Shown in pieces: positions 11,308 to 21,024 of a stretch of 64,000 nucleotides of DNA. A model generated the notes under the pieces. The model was not told the origin of the DNA, did no database searches, and saw nothing but the letters and a program-made list of their open reading frames with translations. Each line of letters starts with the position of its first letter. The first letter of the stretch is position 1. The translations under genes were made by a program, and so were the position numbers. The DNA is from Candidatus Flemingiibacterium sp. (GTDB lineage: Bacteria; Bacillota; Clostridia; Oscillospirales; CAG-272), in the NCBI GenBank assembly GCA_045578725.1, contig JAZNKS010000052.1, positions 8,640 through 72,639 of the forward strand, given 5' to 3'.

Positions 11308-11787
11308 ATGCTTCGCATTCTATTCGTCTGCCACGGCAATATCTGCCGCAGCCCGATGGCGGAATTTATCATGAAGGATCTTGTAAAGAAAAAAGGGCTG
11401 GCCGGGCAGTTTGCGATTGCATCCTGCGCGACCAGCACGGAAGAAATATGGAACGGTATCGGCAATCCGGTCTATCCGCCCGCCCGCGAGGAGCTGGCTG
11501 CGCACGGCCTCGGATGTGAGGGCAAGCGGGCCGTCCAGCTGAGCCGGAGCGATTACGGGGCGTGGGATCTGCTTGTCGGGATGGACAGCGCGAATATCCG
11601 CAATATGCACCGGATGCTCGGCGGCGATCCCGAGGGGAAGATTCACAAGCTGATGGATTACACCGGGCGCGGCGGCGATGTCAGCGATCCGTGGTACAGC
11701 GGCCGATTCGATGTCGCGTACCGGGATATTTTCGAGGGCTGCACGGCGCTGCTGGAAACGCTTCTTCGGGACGGAACGGTCGGTTAA
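11308..11787 (+). CDS. Low-molecular-weight protein-tyrosine phosphatase
   Basis: 159 aa. N-terminal P-loop ILFVCHGNICRSPMAEF (CX5R-S) and the DPWY aspartate loop. Confidence 0.92.
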   Translation: MLRILFVCHGNICRSPMAEFIMKDLVKKKGLAGQFAIASCATSTEEIWNGIGNPVYPPAREELAAHGLGCEGKRAVQLSRSDYGAWDLLVGMDSANIRNMHRMLGGDPEGKIHKLMDYTGRGGDVSDPWYSGRFDVAYRDIFEGCTALLETLLRDGTVG

Positions 11788-12572
11788 TTCCGGGCAAGAC
11801 CGAATTTCTGCTCCGGAGTCAGCCGCTCTTTCGTGGTGATGACGGGGCTGACGGCGGTGGGCGTGATGGCATCCCACACATCCCTCGGCTTCAGATACCC
11901 AAGGGCCGCCGCTTGAAAGGCTTCCCGGAAGGCATCGGTGTCTGCTGCCGGGAGGGATCCTGACGGAAAGAGGACAAAGTACGCGATATCCTGCCTTGCC
12001 GGATCGAAGCCGCAGAACACGCGCCCGCCGGATCCGGCGAGTGGAGGCAGGCGGTTCAGAACCGTCAGGGAATCGGACAGAAGGTTCCACCGCGCCAGCG
12101 AATCGATGGCCTCGATTTTAACGGTATGACGATGTTCGCAGGGAGGCTCTTCCGGAATCACTTGGCTGAAATCCCATTGTCCGCGCGGCGTATGATTCCA
12201 GCCGTAGAGGCGCATTTCCTCGGGTGTGTACAGCCGGGGATAGGAAATTGCCTGTCCCAAGCGTTCGGCAAGCGCATGAAAAACGGAATAGATCTTTTCA
12301 TAAAAATCCTCTCCCATGGCGGGGGAGGATTTTTGCTTATGAATATACACGCTCAGGATTTCCTCCCGAACAAAAACGGCGGGGATTGTATCACGCCGGA
12401 GCGGTTCGGGGCGTGGCTCTGGCAGGACAAGCTGTGTAGAGGCCTGCAGATAACAGGCTCTGGCACCAAGCCCGAGCGAGCTTTCAAGTTCGGTAAGAAA
12501 GTCCTTGGCGAGGGGCGTGTGATCGGCACGCCCGGTTCGCAGAACCTCCTCAATCGGAGTGCGTGTCAGCAT
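11784..12572 (-). CDS. Hypothetical protein
   Basis: 262-aa ORF with ordinary-looking amino-acid composition. Convergent with the LMW-PTP gene (4-nt overlap). No motif recognised. Confidence 0.55.
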   Translation of the reverse strand: MLTRTPIEEVLRTGRADHTPLAKDFLTELESSLGLGARACYLQASTQLVLPEPRPEPLRRDTIPAVFVREEILSVYIHKQKSSPAMGEDFYEKIYSVFHALAERLGQAISYPRLYTPEEMRLYGWNHTPRGQWDFSQVIPEEPPCEHRHTVKIEAIDSLARWNLLSDSLTVLNRLPPLAGSGGRVFCGFDPARQDIAYFVLFPSGSLPAADTDAFREAFQAAALGYLKPRDVWDAITPTAVSPVITTKERLTPEQKFGLARN

Positions 12573-15791: not shown

Positions 15792-15819
15792 AAATCCCGG
15801 ATCGTTCGATCCGGGATTT
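15792..15819. terminator. Bidirectional terminator hairpin between convergent genes
   Basis: AAATCCCGGATC (15792-15803) pairs with GATCCGGGATTT (15808-15819). A/T runs lie on both sides. Confidence 0.75.
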
Positions 15820-15822
15820 TCT

Positions 15823-17073
15823 CTATGCCTTAATATAAGAATCCTGCCGCAGCTCCAGAAAGTCATCCAGAAGATCGGCGAGGGCGGCGCTGTGATAATC
15901 GGGCGCGGCTGTGAAGCGGATGCCATCGCCGAGCTCCATCCGATGGCCGCCGGCATCGTCAAAGGAGATGCCAAGGCCGCGCAGACTCTGCACACGGTGG
16001 AATTGCCCGAGGGCCTCCCCCCATCCAAGCCCCGGCTGTTCGCTTTGGATGCGGCGGACGGCGGCGCGGATTTCCAGTGCCTTTTCCAGCGTCATCGTGT
16101 CGCAGATGCCGGAGGCGATCCGGGTGATCTTTTCGGTGTCGGTATACCGGAAGGCGGGGAGCGTGTTCTCGCCGCATCCGGAGCCAAGAGTGCGCTCTAA
16201 AATCGCGCGCTGTCCCTCGTTCAGCCGGGCATCGGTGTGAAATTCCGCACGGTCGAAGGCGGACATGGCGTGCTTGTTGTAGAGAATGCCGATAACGCTC
16301 CGGATATGCGCGGCTGTCTGCGGATCCAGATCCAGCGTACCGTCAGCCAGAAGGGTATCGCACATCGAGCGGGAGGTGCAGGCGCGAAGCTTTTCCAGCA
16401 CCTCGCTCCGGTGACGGGTGGCCATCAGCGAAAGCAGAATCATGGTGTCGCTGTTGTCGGGGAGGGAAGCGGCGAGATAATCCCCGAAGGAGGGGCGGGT
16501 GGTTTCGCAGTAATGGTAAAGACGGGTATCAAGCTGGCGCTCCGTGCAGATCAGATGGCTCATGAAATCCATGAAGTATTCCATCTCACGGCCGATCGGG
16601 GAATTGTCGCAGGCCGGTTTATCCAGTGTCCGCTCTTCAAACAGGCCGAGAAGATAGGTCTTGATCCGATCGAAGCAGTCCGTCACCAGCGAATCCTTCT
16701 CGGTGTTGATCCAATAGGTCAGCTCCGGCATGGAGGAATAAATGAAGCTGCGGCTGAAAACAAAGCGCTCCAGGTATTCCTTCAGCGAGCGGATGCCGCG
16801 TGTGCCGCGCTCGGAATACATGGCGATCCGGATGTGGCCGCTCTCCAACAGGGAAAAAAGCAGGCTGCGGTGCCCGGCGGCGGGGAGATTGGCATCCGGC
16901 AGAACCGCGAAAAAGCCGTCGATCAGCTGGGGACAGGTGAGTGCCAGCGGCTCCTCATGAAAGATCAGGCTCTCATACAGCGCGGCCGAGGCGTGCCAGT
17001 AATGGGCGGGAACGGAGCTGTTATGCCCGCGCCCGGGATTGAATTTTATCGAATCAAAGACATCCGTTACCAT
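15823..17073 (-). CDS. Hypothetical protein (416 aa), third gene of the NUDIX operon
   Basis: I prefer the ATG at 17073, which follows AAAGGAG (MVTDVFDSIKFNPGRGHNSS...). The listed ORF start at 17547 adds a Pro/Arg/Ser-rich low-complexity extension that overlaps the NUDIX gene in another frame. Confidence 0.65.
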   Translation of the reverse strand: MVTDVFDSIKFNPGRGHNSSVPAHYWHASAALYESLIFHEEPLALTCPQLIDGFFAVLPDANLPAAGHRSLLFSLLESGHIRIAMYSERGTRGIRSLKEYLERFVFSRSFIYSSMPELTYWINTEKDSLVTDCFDRIKTYLLGLFEERTLDKPACDNSPIGREMEYFMDFMSHLICTERQLDTRLYHYCETTRPSFGDYLAASLPDNSDTMILLSLMATRHRSEVLEKLRACTSRSMCDTLLADGTLDLDPQTAAHIRSVIGILYNKHAMSAFDRAEFHTDARLNEGQRAILERTLGSGCGENTLPAFRYTDTEKITRIASGICDTMTLEKALEIRAAVRRIQSEQPGLGWGEALGQFHRVQSLRGLGISFDDAGGHRMELGDGIRFTAAPDYHSAALADLLDDFLELRQDSYIKA

Positions 17074-17728
17074 GGAAAGCTCCTTTTTGCCGGCAGGCGA
17101 TCTGATATTGATAGAGGGCACTCTGGGTGAAGCCGTCGATGATTTCACCGTGCAGGATGGCAGATTCGGCTTCCTCTGTCGTGAAAAGGCGGAATCCGAG
17201 GATTCCCTCCTCCTCCTGCGGTCTGCCGATCGCGTTAATATGGGCGATGGCGATATCGACGATGCCGCCGCTCTGCCCGCTGTCGGCGATGGTGCGGCCG
17301 AGAAACTCCACCGAATCGGTTTCGGCACCGATTTCTTCGGCCATCTCGCGGCGGATCTGCTCCTCGGGTGCGGTATCCGGATCCAGAAAGCCGCGGGGCA
17401 GCTCCCAAAGGAAGGCTTCACTCCGCACGGCATGGCGAACATGGCGGAGGAGGATGATTTTTTCCTCGTAAATCGGCAGGCAGACCACTCCGGCCCGCTT
17501 CTGGCGTGGCAGGATGCGGGAGTAGGTATACCTCCCCCCGCCGTCATCGATCAGATCAGCAACGAGATCGATCCACCTGCTGCGGAAGACAACGCCGAGC
17601 GGGGTATCCTCCGAGTCGTATTCTTCGAGAATGGCCGGATCGGTGATGATATGGAATTTTTCGAGGGGGGCGAATTCTTCGGGGCGCTCCTTCATCAGCG
17701 CCAGATACTTCCGTATGCGTGGTTTCAT
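17054..17728 (-). CDS. NUDIX hydrolase (ADP-ribose pyrophosphatase-like)
   Basis: 224 aa. Nudix box GFLDPDTAPEEQIRREMAEEIGA has correct G-to-RE spacing and an REx2EExGU core, with T in place of the first E. Confidence 0.88.
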   Translation of the reverse strand: MKPRIRKYLALMKERPEEFAPLEKFHIITDPAILEEYDSEDTPLGVVFRSRWIDLVADLIDDGGGRYTYSRILPRQKRAGVVCLPIYEEKIILLRHVRHAVRSEAFLWELPRGFLDPDTAPEEQIRREMAEEIGAETDSVEFLGRTIADSGQSGGIVDIAIAHINAIGRPQEEEGILGFRLFTTEEAESAILHGEIIDGFTQSALYQYQIACRQKGAFHGNGCL

Positions 17729-19113
17729 TTGCAGTATTCCTTTCTGAAGCGTGTCAGATAGTCACCGATGGCTTTGTCTGCGCGGATGGGATTGTCTGCC
17801 TGCCACTTTTCCAGCCGATCGGCAAGGTTCAGCACACAGGCGCGGGGGAGCGGGATTCCCGAGCGGGCGGCTTCCAGAAGCCGGAGCGCGATGCCCGGAA
17901 GATAATGGGGAGAATCGGAGAATGCAAGCTTTGAAAGAATGTGGAACAAGGGGGCATAATCCTGCGGATACGAGGTTTTCACGGCCTTTGAAAGCAGGAC
18001 ATTCAGCAGCCCGGCGGTCACTTCGGTGCAGACGGGGACGGTCCAGCCGAGATAATCGAAGATCATACCCCAGCTGAAATCCAGCTTCCAGCCGTCCTGC
18101 GTACCGATAAAGATGCGGGCGCGCTCCAGAGCGGCGACGGAGCGAAGGGCATCCTCGCCGAGCATGGCAATCAAATGGCGGGGGAACTCCCGGCCGGGAA
18201 GCAGAGCGATCTGCGTAATCCGGGCGCGGATTGCGGAATCGCTTCGGATGTCATCGAGAATTGCCAGAATCTCCCGGTCCTCCTCGCCTGCGGGAACGGT
18301 GCCGTCATAGATCCCGAATTCGGTCGGATAGCGTCCGCATTGGAAAAGCTCGGGAAAGGGGGCACGGACTGTATAGGCCCGCTCGGTTTCTTCGAAAAAA
18401 ACAGCAGGCAGATAATGCAGATGCTCACCGACCAGCCGGCCGATCCGGGGAATCGACATCGCTTCCAGGACCATTTGATGGTAGATGGCGGGAGATAGGA
18501 TTGGGAGTGTGACATCACGCGGTCCCGGCAGGGGGTCGGCGGTGGATTCATAGGAGCCGAGGCGGCGGAGGATGCTTTCATGCTCGTCGGGATCGTTTAG
18601 CGGCGTATCGACAGAGGCCATAATCAGCAGATAGGCATACCGCAGGCAGAGGGTCGGGGGATTCGCCGGCGGAAGGGCAACCGCGGAGGGAAGCGGCGGG
18701 ATATATTGAAGACAGAGATGGTAGAGCTCATTTGCCAGCCGCTCGGCATTGGTACCGGTGATCCCAGCACGATGGAGCAGAAGGGCATCCAGATTTTCGA
18801 TCAGCTGCAGGCGTGAGGAGGGATAGGTGAGTGTATCGCCGGCAGGATCCTTCAGATCGCTGGAATCCGGAAGATCATCGATATCATTTCTGAGCGCATC
18901 CCGCCAGCTTTTGGATTTGATTTCCGGGAGAAAGTCGGCACGGTCAAAGCGGCGGATGTTGGGGCTTCGGTCATTGTCAATATAGATGGAACGGACAACT
19001 ACCGATTTCGACCCCTGATAGGCGAAAGTACCTTTGAGCAGATAACGAATGTAATTGGTGTCATCGATTTCATAATAATGGCCGATGGCATCACGAAGAC
19101 TCTGAAAGGGCAT
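17725..19113 (-). CDS. Hypothetical protein (462 aa), first gene of the NUDIX operon
   Basis: I prefer the ATG at 19113, which follows CCAAGGAGG (MPFQSLRDAIGHYYEIDDTNYIRYLL...). The listed extension to 19755 is antisense to the neighbouring gene and reads as junk. No motif recognised. Confidence 0.65.
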   Translation of the reverse strand: MPFQSLRDAIGHYYEIDDTNYIRYLLKGTFAYQGSKSVVVRSIYIDNDRSPNIRRFDRADFLPEIKSKSWRDALRNDIDDLPDSSDLKDPAGDTLTYPSSRLQLIENLDALLLHRAGITGTNAERLANELYHLCLQYIPPLPSAVALPPANPPTLCLRYAYLLIMASVDTPLNDPDEHESILRRLGSYESTADPLPGPRDVTLPILSPAIYHQMVLEAMSIPRIGRLVGEHLHYLPAVFFEETERAYTVRAPFPELFQCGRYPTEFGIYDGTVPAGEEDREILAILDDIRSDSAIRARITQIALLPGREFPRHLIAMLGEDALRSVAALERARIFIGTQDGWKLDFSWGMIFDYLGWTVPVCTEVTAGLLNVLLSKAVKTSYPQDYAPLFHILSKLAFSDSPHYLPGIALRLLEAARSGIPLPRACVLNLADRLEKWQADNPIRADKAIGDYLTRFRKEYCK

Positions 19114-19143
19114 GATGCGCCTCCTTGGTTGGTTTCTGGAAAT

Positions 19144-19172
19144 AGTATAGCATATTTTTTTGCGGTGTGCAA
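19144..19172 (-). promoter_or_regulatory. Sigma-A-type promoter of the NUDIX operon
   Basis: On the minus strand: TTGCAC (19172-19167), a 17-nt spacer, then TATACT (19149-19144), about 30 nt upstream of the ATG. Confidence 0.6.
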
Positions 19173-19302
19173 GAGCTTGGAAAAAGAACGTGTCATTTCG
19201 GAAAAACTCTGTGTCACAGATACTTTTATTCCGCGTCAGGGGTGTGATATAATAATGGCACCGGAATGAAAACCGGAAAAAACCAACAAAGGAGAATCCA
19301 AA

Positions 19303-21024
19303 ATGAAACTGAAGAAAAAGTACATCCGCCTGATCGCCTTTATCGGCGCACTGGTCCTGCTCGTCGGCACTCTGCCGATCACGGCCTCGGCCTACACCGC
19401 ATCCAATGTCCCAAACTACCTGTTCGATTATCGCTACTATGCCGATACCTATCCGGATCTGAAGGCCGCGTTCGGCTACAATGCCGCAAGGCTGTACGAT
19501 CATTGGCTGAACTACGGGTGTCGGGAAGGACGTTCTCCCTCGCCTGTGTATGAGCCGAAGCATTACCGTGCGAACAACCCGGATCTGAAGGCCGCGTTCG
19601 GCGAGAACTGGAAGGCTCTGTACGATCATTTCTGCCGGTGCGGCGTGAATGAGTTCCGGAATTCCAGTCCCGCCTATAACGGCAAATACTACCGCGATTC
19701 CTACGCGGATCTTCGCCGTGCCTTCGGCGATAACAGCCTGCAGTACATCATCCATTATATGAATAACGGCCGCTCGGAAAATCGCAAGGCCAACGGCACC
19801 TCCGTACAGACCACCGTATCCGTTCCCTCCGAAACCACCCGCTCTGCCTATGTCAATACCTCCAGCAAGTCCCTCAATCTCCGTGCATCGGCCAGCACCT
19901 CGGCCAAAGTTATCGCCAGTATGCCCAAGGGAGCATCCGTCACCGTTATCGGTGACAAGGTCGGCGATTTCTATAAGGTGAACTACAAGGGCACAATTGG
20001 CTACGCATCGGCTTCCTACATTAAGTTCACCTCTTCCTCGCAGAGCGCTTCGCCCGCTCCGGCTGAAACCACCCGCGCGGCGTATGTCAACACCTCCAGC
20101 GCTTCCCTCAATCTCCGCGCATCGGCCAGCACTTCGGCCAAAGTTATCGCCAGTATGCCCAAGGGCGCAGCTATCACCGTCATCGGCGATAAGATCGGCG
20201 ATTTCTATAAGGTGAACTACAAGGGCACAATCGGCTATGCATCCGCCGGCTACATCAAGTTCGGAAGCGCTCCCTCCTCTTCGCTGGTGAATCTGATCAC
20301 TGTCCCCTCGACCTCCGGCACAAAGCTGATCAGTGATTCAGAGCTTGCCAACGCGCTTTTCACCTACGGAATCGCCGCAAACAGCAACGCTTACAAGGCG
20401 CTGACGATGATCAACACAAAGTACGGTGACAAGCTGGCCTCCAATAAGAGCGGCGTCAACATCTTCTTCTTTGAAGGCGCCGGAAGCTCCACTTCGGCAT
20501 CGTCCCGGTCGGGCGCGCTCGTTGTAGTGGTCAAAAACGGCAGGATCGTCTATTTGAGCAAGAACGGAAGCACAATCCCGGATTATCCCTTCACCCCCTC
20601 CAAGAATGGCGGCACCGATATGCCGACCACCCAATCCGGTGTCTACAATTTCACCACCACCAACCACAAGAGCACCTATGCCGCGCTGAATATTACCGGT
20701 GCCAAGGTTGTCCGCTTCCGCTCCACGGGCAGCTATTATGAGAGCACATCGGGTGCGATCAACATTCACAAGCGCAGCTCCTCCGGAATCGCTCCCTCGA
20801 ACAAATCCTGGGTCAACTCGGCCGGCTGTCTGCTGGTCGGCAAGTATGATACCAATGAGTATCTGAACTTCATCAAGGCGGTCGGCATCGTATCGTCCGG
20901 CGCAACCTCTGTTGGCAAGAAGACTGCCAATGTCAGCGGTAAGGTTGTCATCGACCGAAGCCTGGCCGGCAATTATCTGACGGCAATCGGCTACACCTCC
21001 GGCGCCATCTCGAAGATCGGCTGA
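19303..21024 (+). CDS. Secreted multi-domain protein: three ~40-aa N-terminal repeats, two SH3b domains and a C-terminal YkuD-like (tentative) domain
   Basis: Signal peptide MKLKKKYIRLIAFIGALVLLVGTLPITASA. Three repeats of the type Y..NPDLKAAFG...LYDH....G..EGR. Two near-identical SH3b units. C-terminal ...INIHKRSSSGIAPSNKSWVNSAGCLLVG resembles the H...S-x-GC motif of L,D-transpeptidase folds. Confidence 0.75.
   Translation: MKLKKKYIRLIAFIGALVLLVGTLPITASAYTASNVPNYLFDYRYYADTYPDLKAAFGYNAARLYDHWLNYGCREGRSPSPVYEPKHYRANNPDLKAAFGENWKALYDHFCRCGVNEFRNSSPAYNGKYYRDSYADLRRAFGDNSLQYIIHYMNNGRSENRKANGTSVQTTVSVPSETTRSAYVNTSSKSLNLRASASTSAKVIASMPKGASVTVIGDKVGDFYKVNYKGTIGYASASYIKFTSSSQSASPAPAETTRAAYVNTSSASLNLRASASTSAKVIASMPKGAAITVIGDKIGDFYKVNYKGTIGYASAGYIKFGSAPSSSLVNLITVPSTSGTKLISDSELANALFTYGIAANSNAYKALTMINTKYGDKLASNKSGVNIFFFEGAGSSTSASSRSGALVVVVKNGRIVYLSKNGSTIPDYPFTPSKNGGTDMPTTQSGVYNFTTTNHKSTYAALNITGAKVVRFRSTGSYYESTSGAINIHKRSSSGIAPSNKSWVNSAGCLLVGKYDTNEYLNFIKAVGIVSSGATSVGKKTANVSGKVVIDRSLAGNYLTAIGYTSGAISKIG
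19831..20263 (+). repeat. Tandem duplication with a 234-bp period, encoding the two SH3b domains
   Basis: GAAACCACCCGC... at 19831 recurs at 20065. About 200 bp align with scattered, mostly third-position differences. Confidence 0.9.

What the first reader, a model, noticed from the sequence alone, without database searches (positions are those of the whole stretch)
15823..19172. Tightly coupled three-gene operon: unknown 462-aa protein, NUDIX hydrolase, unknown 416-aa protein
Seen in the sequence. The operon has its own promoter (TTGCAC, 17 nt, TATACT on the minus strand, 19172-19144) and a short leader. Gene 1 (17725..19113) ends inside the start of the NUDIX gene, giving an ATGA overlap at 17725-17728. 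The NUDIX gene (17054..17728) overlaps gene 3 (start 17073) by 20 nt. A bidirectional terminator (15792-15819) closes the unit. Both flanking proteins have good RBSs (CCAAGGAGG and AAAGGAG) and normal-looking composition, but I recognise no catalytic or binding motif in either. Established knowledge. NUDIX enzymes hydrolyse nucleoside-diphosphate-X compounds (ADP-ribose, NAD-derived or capped species), and such activities recur in nucleotide-signalling and phage-defence or counter-defence contexts. Inference. The obligate-looking coupling suggests a three-protein complex or pathway built around an NDP-X substrate, and it may be uncharacterised.
Basis: partly seen in the sequence, partly recalled or inferred. 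Interest (0 to 1): 0.6.

Follow-up and report, generated by a model that had tools for sequence, protein, structure and literature searches.

The report
Rare NUDIX module with novel partner
The three overlapping genes are real and form a very rare, unstudied module: an active-looking NUDIX hydrolase always travels with, and is sometimes fused to, a protein of unrecognisable fold, and the module usually sits beside cell-wall or surface-sugar genes rather than phage-defence genes.

Summary
Three minus-strand genes (462-aa g1, 224-aa NUDIX, 416-aa g3) overlap by 4 and 20 nt, with a promoter-like site upstream and a hairpin downstream. Neither flanking protein matches Pfam, NCBIfam, PADLOC or PHROGs.

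The trio is syntenic elsewhere, but it is very rare: a g3 profile found 20 hits among 1.84 billion representative proteins, and about 1% of sampled Clostridia genomes carry it.

g3 and this NUDIX subfamily are partners in 12 of 13 loci. Gene order is permuted. Some loci fuse a g3-like region, a membrane segment and the NUDIX into one 726-744-aa protein, and others encode a 1101-aa protein ending in g3, followed by the NUDIX. All 12 NUDIX copies keep the catalytic glutamates.

The AlphaFold2 model of g3 (pLDDT 79) has no Foldseek match in PDB or BFVD. g1 is not conserved in sequence; a winged helix is only a lead.

No defence genes lie nearby. Secreted peptidoglycan-hydrolase-type genes flank 6 of 13 loci, including this window, and surface-polysaccharide genes flank 3 more.

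Best reading (about 0.4): a mobile, cell-envelope-linked hydrolase module acting on an NDP-sugar-like compound. Phage defence remains a weaker rival.

The parts
19144..19172 (-). Promoter-like site of the trio (TTGCAC/TGCACA, 16-17 nt spacer, TG-extended TATACT)
   Evidence: 9 of 12 matches, TG before the -10 hexamer; sequence. Consensus match only. Its position 31 nt upstream of the g1 start is appropriate.
19179..19221 (.). Candidate operator in the divergent intergenic region: two direct repeats GGAAAAA-N5-GTGTCA spaced 21 nt apart, overlapping a 6-1-6 palindrome TCTGTGtCACAGA
   Evidence: family D1, 76% identity; palindrome read. Short repeats of this kind can arise by chance. Function is inferred only.
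17725..19113 (-). g1: 462-aa soluble, mostly helical protein; the lineage-variable third component, with a possible winged helix near residues 293-345
   Evidence: No family hits. No homologue in the 5.8-billion-protein index or in 60 relatives. Only residues 11-76 resemble the L006 counterpart (27% identity, E 2e-5). A leave-one-out HMM does not link it to the other first-gene proteins (E 53). The AF2 model is poor (pLDDT 44).
17054..17728 (-). NUDIX hydrolase of a distinct subfamily nearest to ADP-ribose/ADP-sugar pyrophosphatases, with a family-specific N-terminal extension
   Evidence: PF00293 9e-12. Best NCBIfam hit NudE, 34.5 bits, far below the cut-off of 169. Best solved relatives are NudE 1vhg, Ndx2 2yvm, and ADPRases. 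E128/E131/E132 and E174 are invariant in 12 partners.
15823..17073 (-). g3: 416-aa protein of a very rare family and the constant partner of the NUDIX; its N-terminal domain of about 120 aa is the most conserved part (Q49, D52, Y100, S113, P116)
   Evidence: Homologues at 36% and 26% identity. Profile search: 20 hits in 1.84e9 representatives. Alignments A2 and A4. AF2 pLDDT 79, pTM 0.78. No Foldseek match at E<0.001 in PDB or BFVD. No PDB sequence-profile hit.
15792..15819 (.). Hairpin between the convergent g3 and LacI-type regulator genes (terminator-like)
   Evidence: 12-bp stem, 6 G-C pairs, loop of 4; weak T-run.
19303..21024 (+). Divergently transcribed secreted protein (signal peptide, three ~40-aa repeats, two SH3b domains, C-terminal H...SxGC domain); a recurrent neighbour type of the module
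   Evidence: SH3_3 6e-33. Its C-terminal domain is 44% identical to the neighbour of the L005 trio. Its N-terminal repeats are 41% identical to the M23 neighbour of the G698 module. The catalytic assignment of the C-terminal domain is unproven.

Best explanation
This is a rare, horizontally scattered accessory module. Its core is a two-protein unit: a catalytically competent NUDIX pyrophosphatase, nearest to ADP-ribose/ADP-sugar/NDP-sugar hydrolases, and a dedicated partner of unrecognised fold (g3). The two most likely act as one physical complex. A lineage-specific third element is attached to this core: here the soluble helical protein g1, elsewhere a membrane hairpin or a ~700-aa extension. 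Shown: the partnership, the fusions, the retained catalytic residues, the rarity, and the neighbourhoods. Inferred: the unit hydrolyses a nucleotide-diphosphate-linked compound, most plausibly a nucleotide-activated wall or surface-polymer precursor. g3 would bind, present or gate that substrate. The module would thereby adjust cell-envelope glycopolymer or peptidoglycan precursor supply in step with the secreted cell-wall enzyme encoded divergently next to it. g1 may be the local regulatory or specificity subunit, possibly binding DNA in the shared intergenic region.
For: The partnership holds in 12 of 13 loci, and the gene order is permuted. The order is g1-NUDIX-g3 in the window, L005 and L006; gX-g3-NUDIX in L009, L012/13 and L014/15; and NUDIX-g3-gY in L016. 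Stop and start codons mostly overlap. Fusions link the proteins directly. In the 726-aa and 744-aa proteins a g3-like region is followed by a hydrophobic membrane segment and then the same NUDIX subfamily. G297 and G635 carry a g3-TM gene followed by a separate NUDIX gene. G698 and G514 carry a 1101-aa protein ending in g3, followed by a NUDIX that is 37% identical to the window's. E128/E131/E132/E174 are invariant in all 12 NUDIX partners. The nearest solved or curated relatives are NudE, ADPRases and NUDT5; weaker hits are YffH/AdpP and NudK. Secreted peptidoglycan-hydrolase-type genes are immediate neighbours in 6 of 13 loci. The window and L005 share a homologous C-terminal domain. L006 and G698 have M23 peptidases. 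G297 has a Hydrolase_2 protein. L016 has a weak NlpC/P60-CHAP-like hit. M23, NlpC/P60 and Hydrolase_2 together make up about 0.26% of genes in six of these genomes. That gives P(>=3 of 13) = 4e-5. Three TM or fusion loci lie in surface-polysaccharide contexts. G1093 lies among Acyl_transf_3, Glf, NTP_transferase, EpsG, GT1 and GT2 genes. L010 lies beside Epimerase_2, an NAD-epimerase and an acetyltransferase. G635 is followed by VanZ, a PHP-motif gene that I identified by eye only, and an Ig-like surface protein. There is a precedent for a Nudix gene inside an envelope-polysaccharide operon: gmm in the colanic acid cluster (PMC5158307).
Against: No substrate is known. The diagnostic proline of ADP-ribose pyrophosphatases is Ser here, in a conserved DSG motif (the criterion is from my own knowledge). 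All equivalog scores are far below their cut-offs. g3 has no recognisable catalytic or binding motif and no fold match, so its role is pure inference. Four loci show no envelope neighbour; their surroundings include IS elements, an LRR-dockerin protein, GH127 and an ECF sigma factor. The catalytic nature of the window neighbour's C-terminal domain is unproven. Loci are few and partly related. Sporadic distribution next to transposases, a T4SS coupling protein and RelE-like genes fits a conflict system equally well. Envelope loci are themselves hot spots of variable genes.
Confidence: 0.42

Rival explanations
1. An uncharacterised anti-phage (abortive-infection-like) system. The variable component (g1, the membrane segment or the long extension) would sense infection or act as effector. 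The NUDIX-g3 core would deplete or destroy a nucleotide, such as NAD-derived compounds, a signalling nucleotide or a nucleotide pool.
For: The distribution is patchy: 1 of 32 genomes of the genus, about 1% of the class. Transposases sit next to L012 and L014, a T4SS coupling protein near L005, and RelE-like small genes near L006 and L012. A conserved core with a rapidly changing third component is typical of conflict systems. Membrane-anchored variants resemble Abi effectors. There is a weak PADLOC hit to the candidate PDC-S07 (5.6e-7).
Against: The PADLOC hit covers only the generic Nudix core (residues 77-149). No g1 or g3 homologue and no neighbour in the loci tested matches a defence family apart from a generic HTH. 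No known defence genes were seen within any of the 13 loci. There are no hits in IMG/VR viral contigs. The recurrent neighbours are wall hydrolases and polysaccharide genes.
Confidence: 0.2
2. A self-immunity or compatibility module for the adjacent secreted cell-wall hydrolase (a bacteriolysin). The cytoplasmic NUDIX-g3 unit would edit or purge nucleotide-linked wall precursors, so that the producer's own wall, or the wall polymer recognised by the hydrolase's binding domains, is not attacked.
For: A signal-peptide hydrolase gene lies beside the module in 6 of 13 loci and is divergently transcribed in 4 of them. Catalytic domains are exchanged (H...SxGC domain, M23, Hydrolase_2, CHAP-like) while targeting repeats are shared. 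Known bacteriolysins such as lysostaphin and zoocin A are encoded next to cytoplasmic immunity enzymes that alter wall precursors (my own knowledge; see also the M23 review PMC9662197, listed but not read).
Against: There is no similarity to FemABX-type immunity proteins. The fusion-type loci have no hydrolase neighbour. The G514 sister locus lacks the M23 gene that G698 has. One neighbour (G297) looks like a spore cortex-lytic enzyme with a GerQ-like partner; the GerQ likeness is by eye only, because Pfam and NCBIfam gave no hit. That is not a weapon. There is no evidence that any of these hydrolases is antibacterial.
Confidence: 0.12
3. An NrtR-like regulatory device. g1 would be a winged-helix DNA-binding protein that, together with the NUDIX (sensing or clearing ADP-ribose or a related ligand) and g3, controls the divergent promoter pair and thereby expression of the secreted wall enzyme.
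For: The predicted helix-helix-helix-hairpin at g1 residues 293-345 looks like a winged helix. The top, non-significant Foldseek hits are rich in winged-helix proteins such as PrfA, MarR/TcaR, SelB and O-methyltransferase N-domains. A motif seen by eye, KKGII-x7-YxLxY, recurs in the first-gene proteins. Direct repeats and a palindrome lie in the 190-bp divergent intergenic region. ADP-ribose-responsive Nudix regulators exist (NrtR, cited in PMC5158307).
Against: The g1 model is unreliable (pLDDT 44), and every fold hit has E>0.29. An HMM test does not link window g1 to the other first-gene proteins. Unlike NrtR, the NUDIX here keeps all catalytic glutamates. Fusion and TM variants have no DNA-binding part at all, so regulation cannot be the core function.
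Confidence: 0.1
4. A toxin-antitoxin-like pair. g3 would make or modify a nucleotide-linked toxic product and the NUDIX would hydrolyse it. g1 or the membrane anchor would modulate the balance.
For: The linkage and fusion of an unknown protein with a hydrolase are obligate. Translational coupling is tight. The contexts are mobile.
Against: Covalent fusion of a toxin to its detoxifier in one polypeptide is unusual. No toxin-like motif is visible in g3. At about 400 aa, g3 is far larger than typical toxins. The loci are embedded in biosynthetic operons.
Confidence: 0.06

Closest known systems
ADP-ribose / ADP-sugar pyrophosphatases of the Nudix superfamily (E. coli NudE and NudF, T. thermophilus Ndx2, M. 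tuberculosis ADPRase, human NUDT5)
   Same: These are the best sequence matches among solved structures and curated models. The match includes the N-terminal strands that precede the Nudix fold. The REUXEE glutamates and a downstream Glu (E174) are kept.
   Different: Scores lie far below every equivalog cut-off (34.5 vs 169 bits for NudE). Position 7 of the Nudix box is Thr, not Glu. The 'SPG' proline is replaced in a conserved DSG motif. There is an extra helical extension of about 45 aa. The dedicated g3 partner, or a fusion to it, has no counterpart in these enzymes.
Gmm/WcaH (NudD), the Nudix enzyme inside the E. coli colanic-acid operon, and NudK/YffH NDP-sugar hydrolases
   Same: A Nudix hydrolase encoded inside or beside a cell-envelope glycopolymer locus (G1093, L010 and G635 here; PMC5158307, for gmm). 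There are weak hits to YffH/AdpP and NudK.
   Different: There is no specific sequence relationship. Those enzymes act alone, whereas here the Nudix is bound to a novel partner and often to a membrane segment. In the window the neighbour is a wall hydrolase, not a polysaccharide operon.
NrtR (Nudix-related transcriptional regulators: ADPRase-like domain plus winged helix)
   Same: An ADPRase-like Nudix domain is combined with a possible winged-helix protein, next to a divergent promoter region.
   Different: The winged helix is unproven and lies on a separate, non-conserved protein. The catalytic residues are intact, whereas in NrtR they are typically degenerate (my own knowledge). g3 has no NrtR counterpart.
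PADLOC candidate PDC-S07 (single-gene Nudix defence candidate)
   Same: It shares the Nudix core (27 bits, residues 77-149 against model positions 5-76 of 135).
   Different: The match is only partial and generic. PDC-S07 is a 135-position single-domain model with no g1 or g3 partners. There is no defence context here.
Bacteriolysin-immunity gene pairs (lysostaphin/Lif, zoocin A/Zif)
   Same: A secreted peptidoglycan hydrolase gene lies next to, and often divergent from, cytoplasmic genes that could act on wall precursors.
   Different: The immunity proteins there are FemABX-type aminoacyl transferases, and nothing here resembles them. Antibacterial activity of P0017 is untested.

Membership tests
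Nudix superfamily (PF00293) | Pfam score above the gathering threshold | tested here: met
   45.6 bits against a cut-off of 21.1, residues 77-187.
Nudix superfamily (PF00293) | Nudix box GX5EX7REUXEEXGU with the catalytic glutamates | tested here: met
   The box reads G113-FLDPD-T-APEEQIR-R127-E128-M-A-E131-E132-I-G-A. Only position 7 departs (Thr for Glu). E128/E131/E132 are invariant in 12 family members.
ADP-ribose pyrophosphatase / NudE / YffH-AdpP equivalogs | Score above the NCBIfam curated cut-off | tested here: not met
   NudE 34.5 vs 169 bits; TIGR00052 18.9 vs 79.55; ADP-ribose diphosphatase 11.4 vs 248.
ADP-ribose pyrophosphatase / NudE / YffH-AdpP equivalogs | Proline about 15-16 residues after the Nudix box (the specificity marker of ADPRases; criterion from my own knowledge) | tested here: not met
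   The position is Ser in a conserved D149-S-G151 motif across the subfamily.
Known anti-phage defence systems (PADLOC-DB v2) | All components match the models of a described system | tested here: not met
   Only the Nudix core hits the candidate PDC-S07. g1, g3 and their homologues have no hit. The neighbours tested have none except a generic HTH.
Known anti-phage defence systems (PADLOC-DB v2) | Location in defence islands | tested here: not met
   No known defence gene was seen next to any of the 13 loci. The sample is small.
NrtR-type Nudix regulators | Nudix domain fused to a winged-helix DNA-binding domain | tested here: not met
   The NUDIX protein has no such domain. The winged helix in g1 is only a low-confidence prediction.
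g3 family (new, unnamed) | Full-length alignment with the invariant residues Q49, D52, Y100, S113, P116, E163, R235, Y265-N266, E277 | tested here: met
   Alignments A2 and A4; profile E-values from 1e-46 to 1e-207 for the full-length members.
g3 family (new, unnamed) | Adjacency or fusion to the dedicated NUDIX subfamily | tested here: met
   12 of 13 loci. The exception is G364, where no NUDIX gene follows the g3-TM gene.
L,D-transpeptidase (YkuD) fold, for the neighbour P0017 C-terminal domain | Match to the family profile or a solved structure; His...[ST]-x-G-C motif | tested here: inconclusive
   A motif IH-x17-SAGC is present and conserved in P0015. There is no Pfam, NCBIfam or PDB sequence hit.

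The most novel reading that the evidence does not exclude
The NUDIX-g3 unit is a new kind of cell-envelope conflict device. It would be a cytoplasmic or membrane-anchored enzyme pair that hydrolyses or edits nucleotide-activated wall or surface-polymer precursors. That would make the producer immune to the secreted peptidoglycan hydrolase encoded beside it, or would remodel the glycopolymers that such hydrolases and phages use as receptors. g3 would be a founding member of a new protein fold that selects the precursor.
Probability: 0.12. Interest if true: 0.8.

Novelty: new variant of a known kind. Interest (0 to 1): 0.55.

Why it matters
Nudix hydrolases are usually treated as stand-alone housecleaning enzymes, and reports of regulation by partner proteins are very few (PMC5158307). 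Here one subfamily is tied to a dedicated partner with no recognisable fold. The tie shows up as adjacency, permuted gene order and two independent kinds of gene fusion, and the module sits next to cell-wall hydrolases and surface-polysaccharide genes of gut-type Clostridia. If the pair controls a nucleotide-linked envelope precursor, that would be a new control point in Gram-positive wall or glycopolymer metabolism, or a new kind of immunity to wall-degrading enzymes. It would also give a function to an orphan protein fold. The family is very rare, so its general importance may be limited. Its value lies mainly in the mechanism and in assigning a new Nudix substrate class.

Tried and rejected
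Word-index homology searches for g1 and g3 found only the query. Homologues were reached through the NUDIX neighbours instead.

Six-frame searches of 60 relatives found nothing for g1 or g3.

Pattern scans for g3 in JGI metagenome contigs and IMG/VR found nothing. GTDB genome contigs gave only the Acutalibacteraceae MAG.

Pfam, NCBIfam, PADLOC and PHROGs gave nothing for g1 or g3. The one weak hit, DUF6181 at E 0.012, is below threshold, and I disregarded it.

The g1 AF2 model is too poor to interpret, and its fold hits are not significant.

I looked for a shared C-terminal winged-helix module in all first-gene proteins. It is visible by eye. A leave-one-out HMM supports it only for L009, L012 and L014, leaves L005 borderline, and does not support it for L006 or the window. 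I therefore do not claim homology.

I considered that the N-terminal 700 aa of the 1101-aa protein is a fused g1. There is no statistical support.

An empty-site comparison within the genus failed. Only the EamA-LacI pair is syntenic in the nearest genome (54-59% identity) and the rest differs, so island borders cannot be set.

Base composition shows no foreign signature.

Literature searches found no description of this module.

Full report
**Observation.**

The ORF list and the minus-strand sequence confirm the three genes:
- g1, 17725..19113, 462 aa
- NUDIX, 17054..17728, 224 aa
- g3, 15823..17073, 416 aa

The ATGA overlap at 17725-17728 and the 20-nt overlap at 17054-17073 are exact. AAGGAGG precedes g1 and AAAGGAG precedes g3 at normal spacing. 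The g3 frame is open back to 17547, but homologues begin M-V-T-D-[VI]-F-D-S, as the 17073 start does.

Such sites are no more frequent in the region than in shuffles, so only their placement speaks for them. GC and GC3 of the three genes (0.64-0.75) lie within the genome's range of 0.66+/-0.08.

**What the proteins are.**

The middle protein is a Nudix hydrolase (PF00293, 45.6 bits). Its closest curated and solved relatives are ADP-compound and ADP-ribose/ADP-sugar pyrophosphatases: NudE 1vhg, Ndx2 2yvm, the M. tuberculosis ADPRase, NudF and NUDT5. All equivalog scores are far below their cut-offs, so it is a separate subfamily.

g1 and g3 have no hit in Pfam, NCBIfam, PADLOC or PHROGs. They have none in a word-indexed search of 5.8 billion proteins, and none in 60 related genomes, 31 of them in the same genus.

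**Finding relatives through the NUDIX.**

The NUDIX has a handful of homologues at 28-57% identity. On two of their contigs the same architecture appears:
- L005, an Acutalibacteraceae MAG: 431 aa, NUDIX, 390 aa
- L006: 407 aa, NUDIX, at least 409 aa

The third genes are clear g3 homologues (36% identity, E 4e-73; 26%, E 2e-44).

The first genes are not demonstrably homologous. Window g1 matches only the first ~66 residues of the L006 protein (27%, E 2e-5), and nothing in the L005 protein.

**Size of the g3 family.**

An exhaustive profile search with three g3 sequences against 1.84 billion cluster representatives returned only 20 proteins, and seven further full-length or near full-length members. 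Six-frame profile searches of genomes found, including the window's own genome:
- 3 of 401 genomes in the order
- 5 of 399 in the class
- 2 of 401 in the phylum

The family is real but very rare, and its distribution is patchy.

**NUDIX and g3 are a unit.**

I examined 13 distinct loci. A NUDIX of the same subfamily is adjacent to or fused with a g3-type protein in 12 of them.

| Arrangement | Loci |
|---|---|
| g1-NUDIX-g3 | window, L005, L006 |
| gX-g3-NUDIX | L009, L012/13, L014/15 |
| NUDIX-g3-gY | L016 |
| g3-like + TM protein, then a separate NUDIX | G297; G635 (two tandem g3-TM paralogues) |
| One polypeptide: g3-like region, hydrophobic segment, NUDIX (726 and 744 aa) | L010/11, G1093 |
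| 1101-aa protein whose last ~400 aa are g3-like, then a 297-aa NUDIX | G698, G514 |
| g3-TM gene with no NUDIX next to it | G364 |

In the fused proteins the NUDIX part is 33% identical to the window's over 167 aa (E 1e-22). The N-terminal part is 34% identical to g3 over 92 aa (E 1e-8). The 297-aa NUDIX of G698 is 37% identical to the window's.

Permuted order with overlapping stop and start codons, plus two independent fusion types, is strong genomic evidence that the two proteins act together, probably as a complex.

An alignment of 12 NUDIX partners keeps the metal-binding glutamates E128, E131 and E132 and a downstream E174 without exception. Hydrolysis is therefore part of the function. 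The subfamily differs from ADP-ribose pyrophosphatases in three ways:
- Thr at box position 7
- a conserved DSG where ADPRases have the diagnostic proline
- a helical N-terminal extension of about 45 residues

**g3.**

With an eight-sequence alignment, AlphaFold2 gives a usable model (pLDDT 79, pTM 0.78). It is mostly helical with a small alpha/beta N-terminal domain. Foldseek finds nothing at E<0.001 in the PDB or in BFVD, and the top hits have TM-scores of 0.1-0.2. A sequence profile also finds no solved relative.

The N-terminal ~120 residues are the part shared by all architectures. Q49, D52, L75 and Y100 are invariant, and G79, S113 and P116 nearly so. Full-length members add E163, R235, Y265-N266 and E277. 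I recognise no known motif in these residues.

**g1.**

The first-gene position holds proteins of 284 to 468 aa among the complete copies. A leave-one-out HMM test against all ORFs of the genome gives these results:

| Protein | E-value |
|---|---|
| L012 | 2e-8 |
| L014 | 5e-7 |
| L009 | 5e-4 |
| L005 | 0.13 |
| L006 | 1.8 |
| window g1 | 53 |

The first three are related, L005 is borderline, and L006 and the window protein are not linked.

By eye, all six share a segment like KKGII-x7-YxLxY followed by LSKIDFSD; in the window these read ARIFIGTQDGWKLDFSWGMIFDYL and ILSKLAFSDSP. The poor AF2 model (pLDDT 44) predicts a helix-helix-helix-hairpin there. Its non-significant Foldseek hits are mostly winged-helix proteins. 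This is a lead, not a result.

In other loci the third element is a membrane hairpin or a ~700-aa extension. I could not show that this extension is g1-like.

**Context.**

No locus has a recognisable defence gene. The module is mobile or variable: IS or Tn5-type transposases abut L012, L014 and G635, a T4SS coupling protein lies near L005, and RelE-like small genes (judged by eye) lie near L006 and L012.

The striking regularity is a secreted peptidoglycan-hydrolase-type gene immediately beside the module in 6 of 13 loci:
- **Window:** P0017 has three ~40-aa repeats, two SH3b domains and a C-terminal H...SxGC domain.
- **L005:** the same C-terminal domain (44% identity), in an operon with the T4SS coupling protein.
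- **L006:** an FG-GAP plus M23 protein.
- **G698:** a protein with P0017's N-terminal repeats (41% over 176 aa) joined to an M23 domain.
- **G297:** a CwlJ/SleB-type Hydrolase_2.
- **L016:** a secreted protein with a CHAP/NlpC-P60-like Cys...His pattern (weak, E 2e-3).

M23, NlpC/P60 and Hydrolase_2 genes total 37 in six of these genomes, about 0.26% of genes. The chance of at least 3 such immediate neighbours in 13 loci is about 4e-5.

Three further loci, all of the membrane or fusion type, lie in surface-polysaccharide contexts:
- **G1093:** the 744-aa fusion directly follows Acyl_transf_3, UDP-galactopyranose mutase, a sugar-1-phosphate nucleotidyltransferase, an EpsG polymerase and glycosyltransferases.
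- **L010:** it sits beside Epimerase_2, an NAD-epimerase/dehydratase and an acetyltransferase.
- **G635:** it is followed by VanZ, a gene with a CpsB-like PHP motif (identified by eye only) and an Ig-like surface protein.

In total, 9 of 13 loci point to the cell envelope.

**Interpretation.**

Shown: a conserved NUDIX-g3 unit with retained catalytic residues, a variable third element, rarity, patchiness, and envelope-type neighbourhoods.

Inferred: the unit hydrolyses an NDP-linked compound connected with wall or surface-polymer synthesis. g3 would select or gate the substrate, anchored at the membrane in some lineages. In this window the unit would work in step with the divergent secreted wall enzyme, with g1 possibly acting on the shared intergenic region. 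That region contains two GGAAAAA-N5-GTGTCA repeats 21 nt apart and a TCTGTGtCACAGA palindrome.

A precedent for a Nudix gene inside an envelope-polysaccharide operon is gmm of the colanic acid cluster. Its true substrate is itself debated (PMC5158307).

I put this reading at about 0.4. The rivals are phage defence (0.2), immunity to the neighbouring hydrolase (0.12, a special case of the envelope reading), an NrtR-like regulator (0.1) and a toxin-antitoxin-like pair (0.06).

**Novelty and verdict.**

The Nudix domain is ordinary. Its obligate pairing with a protein of unrecognised fold, the fusion variants and the wall-hydrolase association are, as far as the libraries and papers I searched show, undescribed. 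I class it as a new variant of a known kind: a Nudix hydrolase module. It contains a protein family that may be a new fold.

The inference of a joint NDP-X function is supported for NUDIX and g3. The defence framing is not supported. Interest is moderate. The genomic evidence for a partnership is unusually clean, and the wall-hydrolase link gives testable hypotheses, but the family is rare and no function is yet shown.

Noticed in passing
window 19303-21024 and L005 2276-4039: The C-terminal ~190 aa of the secreted SH3b protein P0017 are 44% identical to the C-terminus of a DUF7910-containing secreted protein. That protein lies in an operon with a T4SS coupling protein on an Acutalibacteraceae MAG. 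The domain carries IH-x17-S-x-G-C, has no Pfam, NCBIfam or PDB sequence match, and may be an unnamed cell-wall enzyme domain of conjugative elements.
   Followed up: partly
window 19179-19221: Two direct repeats (GGAAAAAGAACGTGTCA and GGAAAAACTCTGTGTCA, 21 nt apart) and an overlapping 6-1-6 palindrome TCTGTGtCACAGA lie between the divergent promoters of g1 and P0017. They are a candidate operator.
   Followed up: no
L026 9681-10745 (G698) vs window 19303-19830: The signal peptide and the three ~40-aa F-D-x-x-Y-Y...N-P-D-[LV]...A-F-G repeats of P0017 recur (41% identity) at the front of an M23 peptidase in a different family of Clostridia. This looks like a shuffled wall-targeting module with no Pfam model.
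   Followed up: partly
L025 1567-5768 (G635): Two tandem g3-TM paralogues (484 and 465 aa) precede a single NUDIX gene. An IS66-like transposase fragment lies upstream, and VanZ and capsule-type genes lie downstream.
   Followed up: partly
L028 8801-9655 (G297): A CwlJ/SleB-type Hydrolase_2 gene and a Gln/Pro-rich 125-aa gene that looks like GerQ lie directly upstream of the g3-TM/NUDIX pair. This hints at a spore-cortex connection in that lineage.
   Followed up: no
L007 344-5267: A more distant NUDIX homologue (28% identity) sits in a different operon, with a 630-aa unknown protein, an APH-type kinase and sulfotransferases. This context is unrelated to g3.
   Followed up: no
L012 3437-3775 and L006 1889-2242: Small genes of 112 and 117 aa near two trio loci resemble each other and RelE/Gp49-type toxins by eye. 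This suggests toxin-antitoxin pairs in the same variable regions.
   Followed up: no
window 11784-12572: A 262-aa minus-strand ORF next to the GFO/IDH/MocA oxidoreductase has no Pfam match.
   Followed up: no
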